Shown: in pieces, positions 358-45,147 of the stretch
How the letters are laid out: every line of letters begins with the position of its first letter
How positions within the stretch are numbered: position 1 is the stretch's first letter
IMG/VR virus record: IMGVR_UViG_3300037478_000106
Location: 1-45,651 of that record
DNA length: 45,651 bases
Strand: one strand, 5' to 3'
Origin: a virus
Taxonomy: Duplodnaviria > Caudoviricetes
Notes under the pieces: generated by a model
The model's input: only the letters and a program-made list of their open reading frames with translations
What the model was told of the DNA's origin: nothing
Databases searched by the model: none
Translations under genes and position numbers: made by a program

Positions 358-555
358 TTACTTTTCCATTAATGGAATAGGTTGAGAGATGAGACGCATG
401 TATGCTTCGTGCTCTGCAGGAGTGGTGCGGAAGAATGACCGAGGAGCTCTTGGCCATTGAGAGCTTGTCCTTCTCAACGGACTACGCATTGGAAGATGTG
501 CATACGCACTCTTCGGATGAGGTGTCGGCTTACGTAGACCATTCCAGGATTTCAC
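358..555 (-). CDS. Hypothetical basic protein, 65 aa
   Basis: GGAGG-acaa-GTG start; abuts the next gene. Confidence 0.6.
   Translation of the reverse strand: MKSWNGLRKPTPHPKSAYAHLPMRSPLRRTSSQWPRAPRSFFRTTPAEHEAYMRLISQPIPLMEK
361..380. promoter_or_regulatory. 20-bp palindromic motif, copy 1
   Basis: Reverse complement CTATTCCATTAATGGAAAAG is identical to the copies at 4456 and 5713; 3 nt before the ATG at 357. Confidence 0.75.
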
Positions 556-589
556 TTGTCCTCCTATTACAGGTTGGCCTTCACTATCA

Positions 590-637
590 CTGCTCCCGAG
601 GGACTCGAACCCTCATACCGCGCCTTCGCTAGGAGCG
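590..637 (-). ncRNA. 48-nt tRNA-like minihelix (acceptor stem plus T-arm, no anticodon arm)
   Basis: CGCTCCT-16 nt-GAGGG TTCGAGT CCCTC-GGGAGCA-G; canonical T-loop and 5-bp T-stem; intergenic after the AAA gene. Confidence 0.55.
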
Positions 638-649
638 AGCCATCCCCTA

Positions 650-2077
650 CTATACCATCAATTCCTTCATGGCCCTGTGGATGTGCTCGACCTGCTCTTC
701 CATCGTACCGAGGCCATTGCCCTTCAGCTCCTTGACCGCAGCCCTGCCCATCTCGAGAGCCATCTGCGAGGACCAGTCCGGCTTCGGCTCCTCGGGCTTC
801 TTGAGCAGGTTCTGCTGCTGCACCATCGTCCGAGCGGAGACAGCGATGTCGTCTCCGATCAGCATGGAGTCGGAGAGTCCGGTCCGAGTGATGGATGCGA
901 GCTTGGCCCGCTCGACGACCTCTCGAACCACCGCCGGAGTGAACCCTGCGAGAAGTTCTCCCGCTTCGGTGAGGTTGGACTCCTCATCGAGACGACCGCG
1001 TGCGTAGAGCTTGATGAGCCTCTGCACGGCCTCCGCATCAGGTGCCACGATGTTGAGGATGACATCGAGACGCCCCGGTCGCAGCATCGCCTGATTGATC
1101 TGATCGAGGTGGTTCGTGGTGAGAACCACCATCAGCTCGGAGGTCTTCGAGTCGATGCCGTCGAGAGTGTTGAGGATGTTGTCCATCTCCTCGGTACGTC
1201 CACCGCTCATGTGCCTGTCCACATCCTCGGCGAAGATCACCGCAGGCTGGTAGAGCTGCGCGAACCGAATGGCTTCGGGAAGCTGGCTCGCATCCTTGAT
1301 GTAGATGAAAGTCCACCCGTTGTCAGTGGCGATCTTACCGATGCCCCTGGCGAGGAGTGACTTGCCCGTCCCGTAGGGGCCAGCCGCCAGGACTCCGCGC
1401 TTGAGCGGGATCTTGGAATCTCGGCACGCCTGCGCGTGGATGATGGGAGTGATGATGTTGGTCTCGATGAGTGCGGTCAGGTCCTTGTTGTAGACCATCT
1501 CAGTGAGATCCACGGAACGAAGATCGATGAAGCGGGGCTCTCCGAGATCGTCGGACTCGAAGTCCATTTTGAGAGCCTTCCCACGGTAGATCGAGTGGAG
1601 CTTCACGAACTGCTTCACCCGAGTCGCGAGTTCGAGAATCGTGGGCATCCACTTCTTCTGGGTCTGGCCCTCGATGCAGAACGCCATCCTGCCATCATGC
1701 GGATGAACACCGCAGTGGATCTTGGTTCCCTTGTCCAGCGGGAACGCGAACTGTCCCCACGGAGCGGTGACCTTGGAATCAGGCCCCGTCTCGATGGAGA
1801 TCTGCGCGGGAGGAGTGTCACCGAAGAAGCCTCGCGTGGCCTCCTGGAGCGCCGCACCGAACATGTCAGTGAGTACCGCGTGCAGAGCGATGGCTCCCTC
1901 ATACGGGAAGCACTGGATCGTCTCATGGAACGAGACTACCTGCTCCTCCTCAAGCATCTTCCGCTTGAGAATCGAGATCGCATCGGGATAGGTCATCACC
2001 TCAGGGATGATGATCTTCTCGCCGTACTTGACGATCTCAGCTACGTGGACCTTCTCGACTTCCTTAGGCTCAGTCAT
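650..2077 (-). CDS. Classical-clade AAA+ ATPase (FtsH/Cdc48/proteasome-ATPase-like), ~475 aa; frame is open upstream to 2245
   Basis: Walker A GPYGTGKS, Walker B VIFAEDVD, sensor TTN, SRH AMLRPGRLD; GGAGAG before the ATG at 2077. Confidence 0.9.
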   Translation of the reverse strand: MTEPKEVEKVHVAEIVKYGEKIIIPEVMTYPDAISILKRKMLEEEQVVSFHETIQCFPYEGAIALHAVLTDMFGAALQEATRGFFGDTPPAQISIETGPDSKVTAPWGQFAFPLDKGTKIHCGVHPHDGRMAFCIEGQTQKKWMPTILELATRVKQFVKLHSIYRGKALKMDFESDDLGEPRFIDLRSVDLTEMVYNKDLTALIETNIITPIIHAQACRDSKIPLKRGVLAAGPYGTGKSLLARGIGKIATDNGWTFIYIKDASQLPEAIRFAQLYQPAVIFAEDVDRHMSGGRTEEMDNILNTLDGIDSKTSELMVVLTTNHLDQINQAMLRPGRLDVILNIVAPDAEAVQRLIKLYARGRLDEESNLTEAGELLAGFTPAVVREVVERAKLASITRTGLSDSMLIGDDIAVSARTMVQQQNLLKKPEEPKPDWSSQMALEMGRAAVKELKGNGLGTMEEQVEHIHRAMKELMV

Positions 2078-2235
2078 GAGCTCTCCGTCTGGTGTGAGTT
2101 GTGGAACAGGACCTTTGCGTAGAGTTTTCCACATAAAGTCGAACGTGGTTCTGTGCTCCTTAGCAAGTTGTTGCAAGTACCGTACATCTTCCGCTAGGTC
2201 TTTCTCATCCGTGCTCCTTCCAGTTAAAGGTGATC

Positions 2236-2517
2236 CTAAGCCCATCTTAGGAAATGTCCTTCGCAGCGCTTGGCTGGAAGACCTGTGAGAACAGTGGTCA
2301 TCTTATCCAGAGTCTCATGGAACTTTGAGTGATCCTGTTCCTTGAGAAACTCTACCAACTTAAGAGTCTTTTCCAGTTGGTAATGCGTAGCAGCATTAGC
2401 CATTGCGAGTGCTGCTGTAACAGTTGTCACGTCTTCAAAATCCAGATCGACAACATAGATCTGACCGTCCTTATGGGCAGTGATCCTGCACGTGAACTCA
2501 GAGCTCGAACTTGACAT
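2236..2517 (-). CDS. Hypothetical protein, ~93 aa
   Basis: Internal ATG of ORF 2236..2664 that avoids a large overlap with the upstream gene. Confidence 0.55.
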   Translation of the reverse strand: MSSSSSEFTCRITAHKDGQIYVVDLDFEDVTTVTAALAMANAATHYQLEKTLKLVEFLKEQDHSKFHETLDKMTTVLTGLPAKRCEGHFLRWA

Positions 2518-4405: not shown

Positions 4406-4455
4406 ATAAGTGTGGGAGTGGTATGGTAAGATCCTTAGACCTATCTTCCTCCCCC

Positions 4456-4475
4456 CTATTCCATTAATGGAAAAG
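4456..4475. promoter_or_regulatory. 20-bp palindromic motif, copy 2
   Basis: CTATTCCATTAATGGAAAAG. Confidence 0.75.
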
Positions 4476-4516
4476 GTATAACCCCTTCCAGAGAATCCTT
4501 CTCCCGTAGATGTCAT

Positions 4517-4778
4517 CCCTGATCAGGCTTTCCCTGGTAGGTAGGCTGTGTGTTAGCCTACCTACCTTCCCCCCCTAACCTCCATGGGTGTGTTGTTCCA
4601 AAGGTGTTAGTTAGGGTATTTGAAGTGTCGTCCTGTTGTAGGAAAAAAAATAAGAGAGAGACTCACACTTCAGAGCTTCATACTCATAACCCACGCAACA
4701 CACCTCCAAAAGGTAGGGGGGGGAGGTAGTTAGGTCAACTCCCCACCTACCTCCCTACCCCAGAAAGATTGGATCGGG
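4517..4778. repeat. Long nested imperfect inverted repeat in non-coding DNA (candidate origin, packaging site or ncRNA)
   Basis: 4557..4595 complements 4696..4734; TGAAGTGT/ACACTTCA inner pair; perfect 12-bp hairpin at 4536..4566; central A-tract. Confidence 0.7.
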
Positions 4779-4788
4779 TATAGATCCG

Positions 4789-4827
4789 AAAAAAGACCGA
4801 AGCGCGGATGTTCTCTCGCTCCGATCT
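4789..4827 (-). terminator. Intrinsic terminator after gene 4865..5305
   Basis: AGATCGGAGCG...CGCTTCGGTCT stem running into a T6 tract on the minus strand. Confidence 0.75.
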
Positions 4828-4864: not shown

Positions 4865-5305
4865 TTACTTCGTGAGGTTCTGAGCGATATTCAGTGCGAT
4901 GTCGCTTGGCGTGCCCATGTCCACGAGCTGACCAGCGTAGGCCTGCTGGTACTCGGTCCAGTCGTCTCCGGACATCTTCGTTCCGTCCGGCAGCGGGTAC
5001 ATGGTGGTGACCTTGCCAGCACGCCGGATGCCCTTGAGCATAGCGTAGTGGGCTTCCTGGATCTCCTCGACCTTCTTACCGACCATCGCGCGGTTCAGGC
5101 CCTGGGACTTGACCCGCAGGGACGTACCGTCCGACATGGCAAGCAGGCACTCCCCGCCGAAGTGATTCAGGAAAGCAGCGAGGTCCTCGATAACGGCAAT
5201 CTGCGCATTATCGGTAACGGTGGCCTTATCGGAGTTGTTCGGCCCGTTGCGCTTGGCAACGGACTCAGTCCGAAAGACGATTCCGTACTCGTTCCAGTTA
5301 CGCAT
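4865..5305 (-). CDS. Hypothetical protein, 146 aa; paralogue of 41565..41990
   Basis: GGAG RBS before the ATG at 5305; shares the MxDGTSxRVxxQ motif. Confidence 0.8.
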   Translation of the reverse strand: MRNWNEYGIVFRTESVAKRNGPNNSDKATVTDNAQIAVIEDLAAFLNHFGGECLLAMSDGTSLRVKSQGLNRAMVGKKVEEIQEAHYAMLKGIRRAGKVTTMYPLPDGTKMSGDDWTEYQQAYAGQLVDMGTPSDIALNIAQNLTK

Positions 5306-5345
5306 GATGTTTCTCCAGTGTAGGGGATTGTATGACGTAGCTCCG

Positions 5346-5373
5346 CCCCCGCACTGTATCGTAACGCGACACT
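5346..5373. repeat. 28-bp inverted repeat, right arm (5' UTR of gene 4865..5305)
   Basis: 25/28 complementary to 4837..4864. Confidence 0.9.
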
Positions 5374-5437
5374 CAGTTGTCAATCAACGTTGTGGCTATG
5401 GACTGTCCATATGCTGCTTCGTCCATACCACACAACC

Positions 5438-5624: not shown

Positions 5625-5653
5625 TTGCGTAGAAAGGGTTCTGGTGTTATATA
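5625..5653 (+). promoter_or_regulatory. Sigma70-type promoter heading the virion operon
   Basis: TTGCGT-17 bp-TATATA with extended TG; same family as the minus-strand promoters. Confidence 0.75.
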
Positions 5654-5712: not shown

Positions 5713-5732
5713 CTATTCCATTAATGGAAAAG
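5713..5732. promoter_or_regulatory. 20-bp palindromic motif, copy 3
   Basis: CTATTCCATTAATGGAAAAG; its last G is the first base of the GTG start at 5732. Confidence 0.75.
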
Positions 5733-6289
5733 TGCCGAGACCTAACCCAGCAAGTGCGAATAGACAGCGAGTCGTCGACCTCAGACCGCGGACGAAAGCA
5801 GCGCTCCGGCTCTACGCCAGCGGAGCGGTCAAGTCTATTGCTGAAGCAGCTCGGACAGTTGGAGCTGCCCCTGGAAGTGTCTACGTCGCCCACGGAACCA
5901 TCACAGGACAGGCCCTTGTGAATAGCGTAGATCAGGCGATCGAGGAGAAGACCATCGACATGGCAGAGCTGCTCAAGCGGCTCGGGAGAGAAGCTGTCCT
6001 CAAGACCGCCACGCTGATGCGAAGCGCCGGGAGTGAGAATATCCAACTTGCCGCAGCGCGTGACCTGGCGGATAGATCAACTGAGACCAGCAAGATCCAG
6101 AAGATCCAGGTAGAGCCTTTCACACTTGATCCGGATGCCGGGAAGGCCCTGGCCGCTGCGCTGGTAGAAGCCGCACAGGTCCAGACCAAGTTTGCTGATG
6201 CGTCGACGAGAGATCTCATCAACATCGAGTCGACGAGTTACACGGCGCTTCCGCCGATGGAAGTACAACCTGTCAAGGAGGAAGGATGA
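5732..6289 (+). CDS. Putative terminase small subunit (N-terminal HTH)
   Basis: HTH-like KAALRLYASGAVKSIAEAARTVG; helical; first gene upstream of terL. Confidence 0.6.
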   Translation: MPRPNPASANRQRVVDLRPRTKAALRLYASGAVKSIAEAARTVGAAPGSVYVAHGTITGQALVNSVDQAIEEKTIDMAELLKRLGREAVLKTATLMRSAGSENIQLAAARDLADRSTETSKIQKIQVEPFTLDPDAGKALAAALVEAAQVQTKFADASTRDLINIESTSYTALPPMEVQPVKEEG

Positions 6290-6853: not shown

Positions 6854-8513
6854 CCAGGATATCCCTTTCATTGATGAGTCCGTGGCTCGGATGCCACAGG
6901 ATATCAGGGAAGATCTGGCTGAGAAAGGCCGGAACAACCTGTACTTCTTTGCAAAGGGTATCATGGGGTTTAAGGACATGACTGAACGTTGTCATGGTCC
7001 GATGTGCGGGTTTGCAGATTCGCATCCTGCCCGATTCAAGATGATGCTCATGCCACGAGATCATTTCAAGTCCTCAGTGATTACTATTGCTGGCGGGCTG
7101 CAGCGAGTGGTTAAGGACGCGGAGAGTCGCCAACTCATAGCGAATGAATCCGCAACGAACTCTGAACGCTTCCTTAGCGCCATTCGTCAGCACGCGGAAG
7201 GGAATAGAATCTTTAGGGCATTGTACTCCGAGCACATTCCAAAGGACACGCATCGAGTCAAGTGGAATGACAAGGAGCTGGTCTTCGTTCGTAAGGGGCA
7301 CTATCCTGAGCCGACTATCGACTCGATTGGTATGACAGGGGCGAGCACCTCACGTCACTATACTCATATCACAGTCGATGACCCGATCTCAGAAGAAGCT
7401 GTCAAGTCTGAGAAGGTTATGCAGGACACGATAACTCGCATGAGCGGATTCACAGCGTTGTTGGTGAAACCTAACACTGACAGCATCTGGGTGGTAGGGA
7501 CGAGGTGGGCCCTGTGGGATTGCTACGAATGGATGCTGCAGAAGTTCGGTAAGGAGCTCGGGAAGCATTTCCGTTCTGTGATTGAGGATGGAGAGCTTCT
7601 GTTCCCCGAACTGATCTCGCATGAGATGCTTGCGCTCAAGCGGGAGATCCTCGGGGAGTACAGATTCAGCTGCCTGTACATGAACAATCCACGGAATGTG
7701 GAAGTTCAGGACCTCAACGTAGATGACCTGAAGTTCTACCGTTGGACCGAGGACGGGGACGCCGTTGAGCTGTTCGATAAGAAGGGTTCCATTACTGGAA
7801 AAGTTCGAATCGATCAGATGGACATCATCACCACGGTTGACCTGGCACCTAGCGAGACTGCTTCGTCAGACCGCAATGCCATCTGCACAGTGGGCATCAC
7901 ACCCTACAACGACGCGATCGTGCTTGACATGTTCGCCAAGCGTTGTACTCCTCTGGAGGTGATCGAACATCTCTTCTGGGTCAAGCAGCGCTTCGCTCCG
8001 CGCGTGTTTGGGATTGAGGATGTTGCCTACCAGAAGTCGTTCAAGTACTTCCTCCGTCAGGAAGCCAACCGTCGGAATGAGTACTTTAACATCAAGCCCC
8101 TGAAGGCACTCAACAAGAAGAACGAGAAAGTCATTCGCATCCGTGGCCTCCAGCCAGTCACGGCTACTGGGCACTTGTACATCAATCCTGTGATGTCTGT
8201 CCTTCGGCAGGAGATGGCTGAGTTCCCTCTTGGCCAGCATGACGACACGATTGACTCGTTGTCTATGCAGCTCCAGCTTTGGCCTCACAGGCTTTCTCCT
8301 GAACACTGGGCACGGCTGGCCCACGAGGAACGGAAGATCATCTCAACCATCCGCTCCGGCGGTTCGGACAGGATGTCTCTCCTCCGGGCAGAACTTGATC
8401 TGGACCCTGACGAGGAGATTGATCCAGACGATGTTACGATCTACTCCTCCTCACGAGTCCTCGCCCCACCCCGCCGTTCTCGCCCCACCGCCCCCGCCTT
8501 CCCACACACGTAA
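6846..8513 (+). CDS. terL: Terminase large subunit
   Basis: Walker A variant MPRDHFKS, Walker B ITVDDP, nuclease TVDLA and FPLGQHDDTIDSLS; GAGG before the ATG at 6846. Confidence 0.93.
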   Translation: MSDQDIPFIDESVARMPQDIREDLAEKGRNNLYFFAKGIMGFKDMTERCHGPMCGFADSHPARFKMMLMPRDHFKSSVITIAGGLQRVVKDAESRQLIANESATNSERFLSAIRQHAEGNRIFRALYSEHIPKDTHRVKWNDKELVFVRKGHYPEPTIDSIGMTGASTSRHYTHITVDDPISEEAVKSEKVMQDTITRMSGFTALLVKPNTDSIWVVGTRWALWDCYEWMLQKFGKELGKHFRSVIEDGELLFPELISHEMLALKREILGEYRFSCLYMNNPRNVEVQDLNVDDLKFYRWTEDGDAVELFDKKGSITGKVRIDQMDIITTVDLAPSETASSDRNAICTVGITPYNDAIVLDMFAKRCTPLEVIEHLFWVKQRFAPRVFGIEDVAYQKSFKYFLRQEANRRNEYFNIKPLKALNKKNEKVIRIRGLQPVTATGHLYINPVMSVLRQEMAEFPLGQHDDTIDSLSMQLQLWPHRLSPEHWARLAHEERKIISTIRSGGSDRMSLLRAELDLDPDEEIDPDDVTIYSSSRVLAPPRRSRPTAPAFPHT

Positions 8514-14046: not shown

Positions 14047-14066
14047 GTTTTCCGGGAATGGAAAAG
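14047..14066. promoter_or_regulatory. Palindromic motif, copy 4
   Basis: GTTTTCCGGGAATGGAAAAG immediately before the ATG at 14067. Confidence 0.65.
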
Positions 14067-17242: not shown

Positions 17243-17697
17243 TGCCGTACACTAACGTTTGGAGTTTGAGTCTTCCTGATGGTGATGAGCCTGCTCCGAC
17301 GATAGATGATATCATTCGGCAGCTGAAGCTTGACCTAGAGGAACGCATCAATACGATTCTTGGGTTTCCGCAGGACCAGGCTTTTGCAGATCCACTCATT
17401 GCCTATTTCGATGCTGGAAACTCAGGAACAGCTAAGGAAATCGATTGGGCTAATGGGCCGATTCAGTATGTAACAATGACAGGGAACTGTGTCTTCACTT
17501 TTGCAAATGCTGTCTCAGGACGGCCTTATGTACTGGTGATGATCCAGGGCTCTGGTGGACATACTGCATCTTTGACAGGCTTCAACTTTGGTGATGGTGC
17601 TTTCACACCGAATACGGGAGCGGGCCTCAAGAATGCTGTGACTGGTCTGTGGGACGGCACTGAATACATCGCAGGTTCGTTCGCTACTGGAGTGTAA
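17242..17697 (+). CDS. Tail/fibre-associated protein
   Basis: IDWANG...VTMTGNCVFTFAN...YVLVMIQG beta-sandwich pattern seen in fibre domains. Confidence 0.6.
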   Translation: MPYTNVWSLSLPDGDEPAPTIDDIIRQLKLDLEERINTILGFPQDQAFADPLIAYFDAGNSGTAKEIDWANGPIQYVTMTGNCVFTFANAVSGRPYVLVMIQGSGGHTASLTGFNFGDGAFTPNTGAGLKNAVTGLWDGTEYIAGSFATGV

Positions 17698-19668: not shown

Positions 19669-19687
19669 TTTTCCATTAACGGAAAAG
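19668..19687. promoter_or_regulatory. Palindromic motif, copy 5
   Basis: GTTTTCCATTAACGGAAAAG followed by TAA-ATG, the same junction as copy 1. Confidence 0.7.
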
Positions 19688-25726: not shown

Positions 25727-28700
25727 GCCATCCGTTCTTCACAGACGCCAGTGACCATCCGTTCTTTGAGGGGACTAGCAATGAACTTCGGCAGGGCACC
25801 GCGACAGGCCGTGCGAGTGTCGAGCATGAGAACATTGCTGAGAATATCTACAAGCTTGAACAGCTAAGGGATCAGACGGCTGACCCTAAGCGAAAGGCTC
25901 ATCTCGATAATCTCATCGGGAATCTCAAGAAGCAGCAGACTGGATGGACGAGACCTGTAACCAAAGAACGCCAGGCTGAACGCGATGCTGTAAAGAAGGC
26001 TACTATCGCGGGTAGAATGCCTTGGTATGAAGGTCCAGTAGAGCCCGCAGGTTCAGGCCATGGTTCAGATCTTGTTCGAGGTGTAGGTGCTGGTATTGCA
26101 GCGGCTGGGCCTCTGGCAGCGGATATGGCTCTAACGATCCCTGATTTGATGGGGTCAGATCTAGCTGAACGAGGTAGGGCAAAGCTTCAAGAGAACGTAG
26201 CCACAACTCGAGAGTTCTTTGATCCTCAAGGCGGCACAGGCCTCATCGGAGAGTTTGCAGGCGGTATTGCTGCAGGCGCTCCGGCGTATGGGCCGGTAGC
26301 GAATCTGACAGGGAAGGCTCTTGCGAGTGCTCCTGTGATTGGTAAGGTGCTTAAGCCGATCCTCACAGGTGCAAATGCAAAGAGCACTGCTGGCCGTGTA
26401 GCATCTGGTGCAGCCGGCAACGTGATTGCAGGTGCGCCTATCAACGCGTTGCAGGCTGCCGGGATCGAAGGGACAACTGAAGACAAGCTTAAGGTGCTAG
26501 GGATTGGACTAGGCGCTGATGCTGTATTCGGTGGGGCTATGAGGCAGCCAGTGTTCAGGGATAATCCTCAGGCACCTAAGACTGCTGACATTCCTGCACG
26601 GGATGAAATGATTAAGCGTGACGCTGAGATCCTTGCAGGTAATCAGAAGGCCAAGGCTGATGCTGCAGAGCGGAAGGCCAAGACTAAGGCTAAGACGGAC
26701 GCTCGTGAGGCTTGGAAGAAGGCTAACCCTGACAAGAAGTGGAGTGATCTTAGCAACGAAGCAAAGAATGAAATCTACGCAAAGGCGGTTCCTCAACAAA
26801 CCGCTCCTGTAGAAGCTCCGCCCACCGCGACAGAAGATCAACTCAAGGCCGCGCATCAAGAACTTGCTCGGGCTAAGGCGGAGCTTGCTAAGAATCCTCA
26901 GGATGCTCAGGCCGCAGGACTGGCACAGGCAATGGAGAATATCATTGCTAAGAACACGCCACAGACTACACCGCCTAAGGCCCCTGTCGGGAAGAGTGCC
27001 ATTGCTTCGATGCAGGCAGAGGCTGCGCCTAAGCTCTCGCCTGAGGTTCAGGAGTTCATGCTGCGTAAGGATCTGCAAAAGCGTTACGCTGAAGCAGGCC
27101 TCCAGTATGATTCTTCCAAGCCTGTGCCACAGCTCACGGAAGAGCTGTCAGCGCACCTATCTAATGTCAGACCCAAGTCTCCACGCGAGGAACTGGAGTA
27201 CACCATCGGGGTGTTGAAGGGACGGATTCTCGAGTCTCCACACATGGCACCGTTGCTGACCGATCTAGAGGCTCAGCTTCGTGCGATGGGTGGTACTCCA
27301 ACATCTACGCAAGCGATCAATGCCCCCGCACCCCAGCGGAGTTCGAGGGTACCTAACCCCCCAACCGATGCCGCTCAATCGATTGTGGGGCAACCTGGGG
27401 CCATTATGGGGGGTCCTGGAGCCGATATTAACACGCCTCCAGCCATCGATCCACAGGGTTCCATTTCTGGAAAAGCGGATGCCCCGAAGTCGTCTATTGC
27501 AACCATCTTCGACGCTGTTGGTAAGGTCCTTGCAGAGGATGTAGTTAATCCTATAGACCTGGACATCAGCGGGCGGCCTAAGCTCGTGGCTCCGACAGGC
27601 ACTAAGCTCAACGAAGAACTCGTTGCACAGATTGCCAATCTCGGGTACGAGACCGTCCGCACTGCCGCCTCACCCAGCCCCACCGCAGTTGCCCCTCCCA
27701 CCCCCGCACCACTGCCAGACCCCACCGGAACACAACCGTCCAGTTCACCATCCGCACTACCCGCAATTAGTGCTAAGTATGGCAAGATGACTAAGGGTCA
27801 GCTTGGTAAGCTTGATGATAAGCTTCTGGCTAAACTGGATAATATGGACCCGAACTCTCCTGAGTACGCGGGTAAGGTTGCTGATCTGCAGGAGCTTACA
27901 GCAGAGATCAATCGGAGAGAACAGCTGGCTACGGTGAAGAAAGGTAAGAAGACTAAGGCAGAAGTTCCTGCTGAAGAACCTGTCAACACTCGACCGTATG
28001 CTGATCTTGAGGGTGGTGCTCTTCTAGACCTTCGAGACCAGACCCAGGCAGAGATCGAAGCTTTTGGTAAGAAGGTACCGAAGGAAACTCAGGCCGCTAT
28101 GGATGCTATCCTGGCGGAGATTAATGGGAGGAAGACTGGAACTCTCCAAGGACCTGACTTTCAGGCTCCTGAGGTAGCAGCACAGCCGGTAGCTACTCCA
28201 GAACCTGTGATCTCTGGTTCTGAGCCTCCTCCTATTGATCCTGTCAAGTTCCGTGCGGCACCGAGTAAGCTCTCTAACACAGACCTCGATACTCAGATCG
28301 ATCGAATCAAGTATGATATCGACGGCTCACCTGAACCGGATAAGGTAGCTGTCTTCCGTAAGCGCCTGTCAGCTCTTATCACAGAAAAGACCAAGCGAGA
28401 TGCTACTCCTCCGCAAGGTCCTGATGATATGCCTCCGACGCCTACTCAAGGGATTAAGCTTCAGTCTCATCCCGCGGTAGGTGCTTTTCTCGGTGGCTAT
28501 GCGACAGGTTACTTTGGACCAGGTTCTGAGGACATGACACATGAGGAGCGCCTCGATCGAGCTTTTATGTGGGGTCTAGGTTCAGCAGGTACAATCGCTG
28601 GAGCTAACTATCTGCGTGCTCGTCGTAATGCTCTTCGTAAGCCGAAGATTTCTAACCTCCTCCCTGGCCGTAATCAGGTTGGGATTGAGAAGGTTGTCTA

Positions 28701-31533: not shown

Positions 31534-31553
31534 CTTTTCCGGAAATGGAAAAG
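31534..31553. promoter_or_regulatory. Palindromic motif, copy 6
   Basis: CTTTTCCGGAAATGGAAAAG overlapping the terminator arm. Confidence 0.65.
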
Positions 31554-37131: not shown

Positions 37132-37175
37132 GGGGTGATGCCAGCGTTCCATTTATGGAAAACTGACACCACCCC
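37132..37175 (-). terminator. Intergenic hairpin (terminator or processing site) capped by palindromic motif copy 7 (37144..37163)
   Basis: GGGGUGGUGUCAG...CUGGCAUCACCCC with two G-U pairs on the transcribed strand, followed by CUUCUU. Confidence 0.65.
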
Positions 37176-41366: not shown

Positions 41367-41395
41367 AATATAACACGAGGCGCGGTACTACGCAA
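41367..41395 (-). promoter_or_regulatory. Sigma70-type promoter for the replication/recombination operon
   Basis: TTGCGT-17 bp-TATATT with extended TG. Confidence 0.85.
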
Positions 41396-41406
41396 TAGCG
41401 GATAAA

Positions 41407-41426
41407 GATTTCCGTTAATGGAAAAG
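41407..41426. promoter_or_regulatory. Palindromic motif, copy 8
   Basis: GATTTCCGTTAATGGAAAAG, between the tRNA-like element and the promoter. Confidence 0.7.
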
Positions 41427-41428
41427 AT

Positions 41429-41493
41429 TGGTGACGCCGAGACTTGAACTCGGATGGGTCCTAACCGGCCCTAGCGTTCCGTACCTCGTCACC
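41429..41493 (-). ncRNA. 65-nt tRNA-like element with degenerate D and anticodon arms
   Basis: Perfect 7-bp acceptor GGTGACG/CGTCACC+A; T-arm CCGAG TTCAAGT CTCGG; only 33 nt between them. Confidence 0.7.
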
Positions 41494-41564: not shown

Positions 41565-41990
41565 CTAACCAGCCAGAGCTTCGAGATCCGCTTCGGAGAG
41601 CTCGCCAGACGCGATCTTCTCGAGGAACTTCGAGAGCGTATCGCCCGAGACCTTCTCGGAAGCCTTCTTGGCAGAGCTGGCCGCACGAGTCGTAGGCGTA
41701 GCAGCACCAACCTGCCGCTTGCCAGGCTTGAACTCGAGCTGCTTCGTGGCGATCTCGTCATCGGTCTTGCCGGTGACCTTCAGACGACGAGCGATGGACT
41801 GAGCCGACACGCGGATGGAAGTACCATCAGCCATGTCGAGAACACCCTGCTCCCCGTAGAACTCGATCATCTTCTGGGCATTATCCCAGACGAGAATCGG
41901 AACATCTCCGAGCGACTGCGTGCCCTTGGCGGTCTTGACTTCGTCGAACTCGAAGTGTGCGCCTTCTGGGGCTTGGACGGTGAGTGGCAT
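41565..41990 (-). CDS. Hypothetical protein, 141 aa; paralogue of 4865..5305
   Basis: AGGAG RBS; own promoter; strong codon bias; MADGTSIRVSAQ motif. Confidence 0.85.
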   Translation of the reverse strand: MPLTVQAPEGAHFEFDEVKTAKGTQSLGDVPILVWDNAQKMIEFYGEQGVLDMADGTSIRVSAQSIARRLKVTGKTDDEIATKQLEFKPGKRQVGAATPTTRAASSAKKASEKVSGDTLSKFLEKIASGELSEADLEALAG

Positions 41991-42049: not shown

Positions 42050-42078
42050 AATATAACATGAGGATCGCCTCTACGCAA
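42050..42078 (-). promoter_or_regulatory. Sigma70-type promoter for gene 41565..41990
   Basis: TTGCGT-17 bp-TATATT with extended TG. Confidence 0.85.
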
Positions 42079-45118: not shown

Positions 45119-45147
45119 AATATAACACTAGACGACCCGCTACGCAA
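45119..45147 (-). promoter_or_regulatory. Sigma70-type promoter
   Basis: TTGCGT-17 bp-TATATT with extended TG. Confidence 0.85.

What the first reader, a model, noticed from the sequence alone, without database searches (positions are those of the whole stretch)
590..637. Second, even smaller tRNA-like minihelix just after the AAA+ ATPase stop
Seen: a canonical T-arm GAGGG-TTCGAGT-CCCTC stacked on an acceptor-like stem CGCTCCT/GGGAGCA (C-A mismatch at the top, as in bacterial initiator tRNA). The linker is only 16 nt with a 3-bp GCG/CGC hairpin, and there is no anticodon arm. A competing TCGCT/AGCGA hairpin exists. Two sequence-unrelated elements that both keep only the top half of tRNA, both in the sense orientation after a stop codon, suggest tRNA-like punctuation of early transcripts (inference). 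An attP remnant is possible, but I see no integrase.
Basis: partly seen in the sequence, partly recalled or inferred. Interest (0 to 1): 0.7.

Follow-up and report, generated by a model that had tools for sequence, protein, structure and literature searches.

The report
tRNA top-half mimic between phage genes
A 48-base stretch between two genes of an uncultured sediment phage has the paired layout of only the upper half of a tRNA, recurs with unrelated letters across the phage's relatives and in mycobacteriophage L5, and likely marks where host tRNA-trimming enzymes set the ends of phage messages.

Summary
Window 637-590 (minus strand) has a canonical T arm stacked on a 6-bp acceptor-like stem under a C·A mismatch. 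The linker is 16 nt and there is no anticodon arm. The rule it meets gave 8 hits in 1000 shuffled genomes.

The window is a complete 45.6-kb podovirus-like phage. In 21 related records plus the window, 22 such elements occur against 1.15 expected. Their stems are unrelated, their linkers run 0-108 nt, and none of the 20 tabulated encodes CCA. An attP origin is unsupported: the 3' 24-mer has no exact match in 185,579 genomes.

Close look-alikes lie in cultured Cluster A mycobacteriophages. A longer one in L5 (51,227-51,133) lies at the unexplained 3' boundary of the abundant Pleft RNA (PMC5712189).

Best reading (0.55): a phage 't-element' read by host RNase P/RNase Z to set mRNA ends. The cleavage is inferred. 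No RNA data exist for this phage, its host is unknown, and no close orthologue of this copy was reachable. The scan noted this kind of element, and the L5 link, before on other DNA.

The parts
590..637 (-). tRNA top-half mimic (the finding): acceptor-like stem, 16-nt linker with 3-bp hairpin, T arm, base 73; no anticodon arm, no encoded CCA
   Evidence: ARAGORN finds nothing; best Rfam hit mascRNA 24.6 bits against a gathering score of 42.5
598..614 (-). Canonical T arm (5-bp stem, 7-nt TTCGAGT loop)
620..629 (-). 3-bp hairpin with GG-containing loop, in the place of a D arm (or the remnant of a class II variable arm)
   Evidence: phage tRNA-Leu genes dominate the weak BLAST matches over 598-627
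650..2245 (-). AAA+ ATPase gene upstream (531-aa ORF; the database gene call is 475 aa), related to ATPases of N4-like and KPP25-like phages
560..565 (-). AGGAGG ribosome-binding site 24 nt after the element's 3' end
   Evidence: read directly
358..555 (-). 65-aa ORF downstream, no homologue found; its gene status rests on the ribosome-binding site only
41429..41493 (-). Second top-half mimic of this genome (7+5 bp, 33-nt linker), preceded by a hairpin and followed by an operator-like palindrome and a promoter-like repeat
41565..41990 (-). Conserved 141-aa gene of unknown function; its homologues are followed by a top-half mimic in 14 of 15 IMG/VR loci
   Evidence: no Pfam, PHROG or Foldseek match

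Best explanation
The element is a cut-down tRNA top half lying between two genes of the phage's leftward gene block, and it likely serves as a cis signal that host tRNA-maturation enzymes read to set mRNA ends. Shown: the anatomy, the position 12 nt after a stop and 24 nt before a ribosome-binding site, and family-wide retention of the acceptor/T-arm stack while the lower half varies from 0 to 108 nt. Inferred: (1) it folds so in the transcript; (2) RNase Z, or 3' exonucleases stopped by the fold, make an end after base 590, leaving the ATPase message with a protected tRNA-like 3' end and freeing the downstream message; (3) RNase P may also cut at 637 or 636 and release a 47-48 nt RNA; (4) the result is a step in RNA level between upstream and downstream genes without a terminator. 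It probably descends from a tRNA gene that lost its decoding half.
For: Recurrence: 22 elements in 780,408 bases of 21 related records plus the window, against a mean of 1.15 (maximum 4) in 20 shuffles. Present in 16 of 22 records, including all 7 relatives at least 90% complete; the 6 without are partial. What is kept: only T-loop letters are invariant; stems are unrelated yet paired; 17 of 20 fold to the top half at minimum energy. Those are the features RNase P measures (12-bp stem plus T loop; PMC10731613 passages; acceptor/T hairpins are cleaved, PMC11143913 passages) and RNase Z binds (T arm and acceptor, D and anticodon arms dispensable; PMC7479834 passages). Trailers: CCA 0 of 20; base 74 is A/T in 17 of 20 (p=0.0004 against locus composition); C at 75 in 0 of 20. 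Cytidines there suppress RNase Z, and CCA-less ordinary phage tRNA genes had C74 in 9 of 14. Position: the only relative holding this ATPase (G012) also has an element 37 nt after its stop. Analogue with RNA data: L5 has an element at 51,227-51,133, kept with compensating T stems in 6 of 6 fetched Cluster A phages. PMC5712189 puts the over-90% drop of the Pleft RNA at 51,140-51,190, with no terminator and no explanation (sections 7 and 11).
Against: No cleavage or RNA end is shown for this element, and the host and its RNases are unknown. This copy is the weakest of the family hits with an acceptor (6 pairs, one G·U) and folds no better than shuffles. No close orthologue of this copy was reachable: of the 26 viral records searched or fetched as relatives in full by handle that could be checked with the ATPase profile, only G012 matched (1 of 33 viral records, 0 of 5), and of 160 distant ATPase loci only G012's had a non-tRNA element just downstream. 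The pairing counts are partly by construction, since elements were picked by a pairing rule. The anti-C trailer does not generalise: all 5 short mycobacteriophage elements have C74. The short L5-type element was absent at the fetched spot in 5 of 11 hand-picked Cluster A phages, D29 among them, so that copy is dispensable. An upstream protective hairpin is only weakly enriched (p=0.015) and this copy has none (-9.8 against a background of -9.2 kcal/mol). The L5 boundary was read from RNA-seq and Northern blots, not mapped to the base, and its authors favour termination.
Confidence: 0.55

Rival explanations
1. The released small RNA is the functional product: a stable top-half mimic that titrates host proteins binding tRNA elbows or 3' ends (tRNA-targeting defence toxins, SmpB, T-box leaders, CCA-adding enzyme). 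Processing would then be only the means of making it.
For: One or two copies are kept per genome, and one sits behind the same conserved gene in 14 of 15 loci. Precedents: the TLD-only RNA of phage DS6A, suggested to titrate SmpB (PMC4131195 passages), and T4 RNAC/RNAD of unknown role (PMC3014915, PMC9697503 passages). In L5, the two deletions that could not be purified remove the element's 5' strand and the viable one does not (PMC5712189 section 10; coordinates).
Against: No shared identity elements: base 73 is T 8, A 6, C 5, G 1 and acceptor sequences are unrelated. There is no own promoter or terminator around 590-637 by consensus scan. Without an anticodon loop it cannot decoy anticodon nucleases such as PrrC. 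The L5 deletions remove 200 or more further bases.
Confidence: 0.2
2. This copy is a decaying relic of a phage tRNA gene with no present function, or it acts only as a generic stable hairpin at a gene boundary.
For: The family shows a series from a near-complete tRNA (G012, called tRNA-Ala by ARAGORN, with a non-canonical anticodon loop) down to a zero-linker hairpin (G003). This copy has a mismatch and a G·U. The short L5 copy is missing in D29. Non-family phage loci also hold such pieces, 15 in 2.47 Mb.
Against: Random decay would not spare both stems and the T loop while removing only the middle in 20 cases with unrelated stems. Density in the family (22 in 0.78 Mb) is several times that of control loci.
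Confidence: 0.15
3. It is an aminoacylated minihelix or a tmRNA tRNA-like domain that enters the translation machinery.
For: It has tmRNA-like geometry (acceptor, T arm, no anticodon arm). One relative's element (G006) has G3·U70 and A73.
Against: This copy has C3-G70, G73 and no encoded CCA. ARAGORN and Rfam call no tmRNA. Identity elements are not conserved in the family.
Confidence: 0.04
4. It is an attP remnant, a copy of a host tRNA 3' end.
For: The T arm resembles those of tRNA-Leu genes.
Against: The 24-nt 3' half has 0 exact matches in 185,579 GTDB genomes and 0 in IMG/VR. The 5' acceptor strand is present and co-varies across the family, which attP does not need. None of 72 ORFs scanned matched an integrase family. 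L5 has its integrase elsewhere and still carries two such elements.
Confidence: 0.03
5. It is a chance fold or an assembly artefact.
For: Folding z-score is only -1.39.
Against: 8 of 1000 shuffles give one hit anywhere in the genome. It is intergenic and on the sense strand. It is identical in a second run.
Confidence: 0.03

Closest known systems
t-elements of plant mitochondria (Forner et al. 2007, PMC1920247; passages read)
   Same: tRNA-like folds with a conserved T arm and a non-canonical lower half lying at mRNA ends, proposed or shown to be cut by RNase P and RNase Z; no encoded CCA.
   Different: Here they are in bacteriophages and use host enzymes. This copy is far smaller (48 nt; the cox1 element is 74 nt). 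Cleavage was mapped there and is not shown here.
mascRNA/menRNA (Rfam RF01684; processing by RNase P and Z recalled, PMC8457004 seen as a search listing only)
   Same: Best Rfam hit: 7+5 top half, 3-bp D-like hairpin, T loop.
   Different: Score 24.6 bits against a gathering score of 42.5, E 0.24. No small anticodon-like arm. The host is bacterial, and no upstream stabilising element was seen.
3' end of the Pleft non-coding RNA and the gene 89-88 spacer of Cluster A mycobacteriophages (PMC5712189; sections 7, 10, 11 read)
   Same: Unannotated top-half mimics in an early transcript. The short L5 copy (47 nt, 15-nt linker) shares the T stem and G at 73 with the finding. The long copy has a top C·A mismatch in 5 of 6 phages.
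   Different: The paper's text that I read does not describe them as tRNA-like. The phages are unrelated. Short copies have C at 74. Common ancestry with the finding is not established, since T arms converge.
TLD-only tmRNA relative of mycobacteriophage DS6A (PMC4131195; passages)
   Same: Phage-encoded tRNA top half without an anticodon arm.
   Different: The finding lacks G3·U70, A73 and CCA, and is not called as tmRNA.
T4 RNAC/RNAD (PMC3014915, PMC9697503; passages) and bacterial Y RNA YrlA (PMC4201824; passages)
   Same: Small stable phage or bacterial RNAs; YrlA mimics tRNA, and one YrlA is cut by RNase P and given CCA.
   Different: T4 RNAs come from a tRNA cluster (their tRNA-likeness is recalled, not seen in the passages). 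YrlA needs a Ro60 partner and a permuted fold; neither is seen here.

Membership tests
t-element (tRNA-like mRNA processing signal) | T arm with GTTCRANYC consensus stacked on an acceptor-like stem | tested here: met
t-element (tRNA-like mRNA processing signal) | Non-canonical cloverleaf, not a decoding tRNA, no encoded CCA | tested here: met
t-element (tRNA-like mRNA processing signal) | Lies in sense orientation at a gene boundary of a longer transcript | tested here: inconclusive
   Sense and intergenic; co-transcription inferred from the lack of a consensus terminator or promoter nearby
t-element (tRNA-like mRNA processing signal) | RNA ends coincide with the element's borders; cut by RNase P or RNase Z | not testable with these tools
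   No RNA data for this phage; only an approximate published boundary for the L5 analogue
canonical tRNA gene | D arm plus anticodon arm with a 7-nt loop | tested here: not met
   16-nt linker; ARAGORN 0, Rfam tRNA 0
bacterial initiator tRNA | C1·A72 mismatch with A73 and a CAU anticodon (features recalled) | tested here: not met
   Mismatch present, but G73 and no anticodon
mascRNA-menRNA (RF01684) | Score at or above the gathering threshold of 42.5 bits | tested here: not met
   24.6 bits
tmRNA TLD / DS6A-type RNA | Alanine identity G3·U70 with A73 and CCA (features recalled) | tested here: not met
   C3-G70, G73, no CCA
attP core of a tRNA-targeting integrative element | Identity to a host tRNA 3' end | tested here: not met
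   0 exact matches in 185,579 species genomes; the true host may be missing from that set
attP core of a tRNA-targeting integrative element | Integrase gene in the element | tested here: not met
   No integrase family among 72 ORFs scanned against PHROGs, of 264 listed
Y RNA (YrlA) | Adjacent Ro60/TROVE gene and YrlA model match | tested here: not met
   No Rfam match; no such family among the ORFs scanned

The most novel reading that the evidence does not exclude
Many unrelated phages, from this sediment podovirus family to mycobacteriophage L5, use anticodon-less tRNA top halves as a general terminator-free punctuation code read by host RNase P/RNase Z. The released or 3'-terminal mimic is itself needed for lytic growth, and it would explain the unexplained 3' end and the apparent essentiality of the L5/D29 Pleft RNA.
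Probability: 0.35. Interest if true: 0.8.

Novelty: new variant of a known kind. Interest (0 to 1): 0.6.

Why it matters
tRNA punctuation of messages is known from organelles and from MALAT1. I found no report of it as a phage gene-expression device in eight literature searches (the library lacks most subscription journals). These elements are missed by ARAGORN and Rfam, so annotation overlooks them. If host RNase P or RNase Z sets phage mRNA ends, phage expression depends on core host tRNA enzymes in a new way. The L5/D29 analogue turns a stated open question (how the Pleft RNA 3' end is made; PMC5712189) into a direct experiment in a laboratory strain.

Tried and rejected
ARAGORN and Rfam on the window: nothing at threshold; weak mascRNA hit only; no relevant hit at the 41,429-41,493 element.

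attP test: 0 matches.

Close ATPase relatives: the single-protein scan of IMG/VR found none. The alignment scans returned only loci at 35-49% identity; the metagenome scan covered 22 of 64 parts.

Expression: no RNA holder listed. Laying DNA contigs gave no variant of the element.

Host: not identified. The GTDB terminase scan gave 5 distant loci.

The 141-aa protein: model pLDDT 85 but no fold match in PDB or BFVD; 107 unnamed relatives; the ESM Atlas did not answer.

A degenerate pattern for orthologues of this copy gave 1 IMG/VR locus in an unrelated phage. A sequence alignment of the short elements misregisters the acceptor strands, so its pair counts were not used and no covariance model was built.

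Rows dropped between (22 hits; 20): G025 at 17,597 (antisense within the structural genes, probably chance) and G037 (identical to G038). For G003 I chose the zero-linker register by hand instead of the script's 127-nt one. Seventeen short family fragments scanned gave no paired element and were not included.

The supplement search of PMC5712189 gave only a primer table. Its figures and the supplements of the D29 preprint were not seen and may bear on the boundary.

Full report
Setting. The window is a whole viral record of 45,651 bases with a 145-base terminal repeat. PHROGs matches give a terminase, portal, major head protein, tail fibre, DNA polymerase, primase, exonuclease and methyltransferase, and no integrase among 72 ORFs scanned. 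The genes on both sides of the finding run leftward. Sequencing runs that hold this DNA are labelled sediment metagenomes. The host is unknown.

The observation. It begins 12 nt after the stop of an AAA ATPase gene and ends 24 nt before an AGGAGG site. The fold is the energy minimum but not exceptional (z -1.39). Significance comes from the T-loop consensus plus the stacked stems: 2 hits in the window against 0.008 per shuffle. A second run holds the same letters. ARAGORN and Rfam do not call it; the best weak hit is mascRNA. The top mismatch can be read as C1·A72 on a 7-position stem, or as a leader C opposite A73 on a 6-bp stem, so the 5' border is uncertain by one base.

attP test. The 24-base 3' half has no exact match in IMG/VR or in 185,579 GTDB genomes. 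BLAST against cultured phages gave only T-arm-sized matches, mostly to tRNA-Leu.

The family. A terminase alignment recovered related IMG/VR records. I fetched 21 of them; the 16 tested by tblastn share 7-22 proteins with the window. One rule (5-bp T stem, TTCRANN loop, at least 6 acceptor pairs, linker 0-130) gave 25 T arms, 22 of them with an acceptor, in 780,408 bases. Twenty shuffles gave means of 5 and 1.15. Elements were found in 16 of 22 records, including all 7 relatives at least 90% complete; the 6 misses are partial records. In 203 non-family phage loci (2.47 Mb) the rule gave 15 distinct non-tRNA hits, so the family is enriched and other phages have some too. One element sits within about 260 nt behind a conserved 141-aa gene in 14 of 15 IMG/VR loci; the fifteenth contig ends 127 nt after the stop. 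The only relative with the ATPase, G012, has a 67-nt element 37 nt after that stop.

What is conserved. In the 20 elements kept (two rows dropped, one register hand-chosen; see Tried and rejected), linkers run from 0 to 108 nt and stems are unrelated in sequence. Base 73 is T 8, A 6, C 5, G 1. CCA is encoded in 0 of 20, base 74 is A or T in 17 of 20, and base 75 is never C. Only T-loop letters are invariant in an alignment of 15. The most tRNA-like member, called tRNA-Ala by ARAGORN, has a non-canonical anticodon loop. Selection therefore appears to act on shape, not on decoding or amino-acid identity (inference). That shape is what RNase P measures (PMC10731613 and PMC11143913, passages) and what RNase Z binds, and cytidines after the discriminator suppress RNase Z (PMC7479834, passages). 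CCA-less ordinary tRNA genes in the control loci had C74 in 9 of 14.

Cultured analogues. A weak BLAST hit led to an unannotated look-alike between genes 89 and 88 of mycobacteriophage L5, with a 15-nt linker, the same T stem and G73. Of 11 hand-picked Cluster A loci, 5 pass the rule with different paired acceptors (L5, Zolita, Bowtie, Bactobuster, SororFago). Adzzy has a version with an 8-nt T loop. Five show none at that spot (D29, Artemis2UCLA, Alma, First, EagleEye). All 5 that pass have C74, against my trailer argument. A second, longer element lies just before gene 89, at L5 51,227-51,133. It is present in 6 of 6 fetched phages, with four different, fully paired T stems and a C·A or A·A top mismatch. 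ARAGORN calls none of these in 11 loci and Rfam none in 6. [quoted passage not shown] Deletions 51,195-51,619 and 51,195-51,407 could not be purified, while 51,407-51,619 was viable (section 10). By my coordinates the first two remove the element's 5' strand and the third spares it. This fits a 3' end made at the tRNA-like fold, but the boundary is approximate, the authors favour termination, and the deletions remove much else.

Mechanism. Most likely (0.55), the element is a cis processing and end-protection signal for host tRNA enzymes, like plant mitochondrial t-elements (PMC1920247, passages). Anatomy, position and conservation are shown. Folding in vivo, cleavage and the effect on expression are inferred. 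Rivals are a trans-acting decoy RNA (0.2), a relic or generic hairpin in this copy (0.15), a charged minihelix or tmRNA-like domain (0.04), attP (0.03) and chance (0.03). Against the main reading: this copy is the weakest family hit, has no upstream hairpin, has no close orthologue at hand, and the short L5 copy is dispensable.

Membership and novelty. It works like a t-element, but the defining test (mapped ends and cleavage) could not be run. It fails membership of tRNA, initiator tRNA, mascRNA, tmRNA TLD, Y RNA and attP. Eight searches found no paper on such signals in phages. The nearest were candidate tRNA-like RNAs without function (PMC10690425, passages), DS6A's TLD-only RNA, T4 RNAC/RNAD and YrlA. 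A D29 preprint confirms the RNA peak upstream of gene 89 and does not mention tRNA (10.1101/2025.11.21.689395, passages). Earlier notes of this scan describe the same kind of element in other phages and the L5 link. I had reached both readings before those look-ups, and they are not independent evidence. Verdict: real, a new variant of a known kind, interest 0.6.

Noticed in passing
window 364-377, 4459-4472, 5716-5729, 6249-6262, 7787-7800, 14050-14063, 19671-19684, 27459-27472, 31537-31550, 37147-37160, 41410-41423: Eleven copies of a palindrome TTCC-N6-GGAA (0.55 expected), several at gene boundaries and one 5 nt after the second top-half element; likely a binding site for a phage regulator.
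   Followed up: partly
window 5625-5651 (+), 41369-41395, 42052-42078, 45121-45147 (-): Four copies of a promoter-like repeat TTGCGTA-N16-TATA (0.01 expected); a possible clue to the host's sigma factor.
   Followed up: partly
window 41565-41990 (-) and 4865-5383 (-): A 141-aa protein conserved at 53-63% across the family and a 172-aa paralogue (E 1e-7). No family or fold match. The first is almost always followed by a tRNA-like element.
   Followed up: partly
L286:5450-5550, L296:5445-5545, L275:1785-1885 (-): A conserved structured RNA between the 141-aa gene and the tRNA-like element in G025, G035 and G037/G038: 6 of 19 pairs covary, with a likely pseudoknot seen by eye and no Rfam match. 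Possibly an undescribed ribozyme or regulatory RNA.
   Followed up: partly
L305:296-484 (-) (G038): Two top-half elements in tandem, 2 nt apart, followed by a hairpin and a ribosome-binding site, like a dimeric tRNA precursor.
   Followed up: no
L245:7677-7708 (G003): A zero-linker version: acceptor-like stem continuous with the T arm, the same shape as model hairpin substrates of RNase P.
   Followed up: partly
L325:1133-1227 (-) (L5 51,133-51,227) and L317:927-1033 (D29): An unannotated tRNA-like fold at the published 3' boundary of the Pleft RNA; 154 phage records match the D29 region.
   Followed up: yes
L023:11557-11643: An initiator-like tRNA with encoded CCA and an enlarged anticodon loop of about 21 nt, behind a distant ATPase homologue.
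   Followed up: no
window 4440-4790: An ORF-poor region with long G/C-run hairpins and a 60-nt inverted repeat; a possible origin or structured RNA.
   Followed up: no
L313:1501-1535 (-): A very short look-alike just after a stop codon in an unrelated 79.8-kb IMG/VR phage; it fails my acceptor rule.
   Followed up: partly
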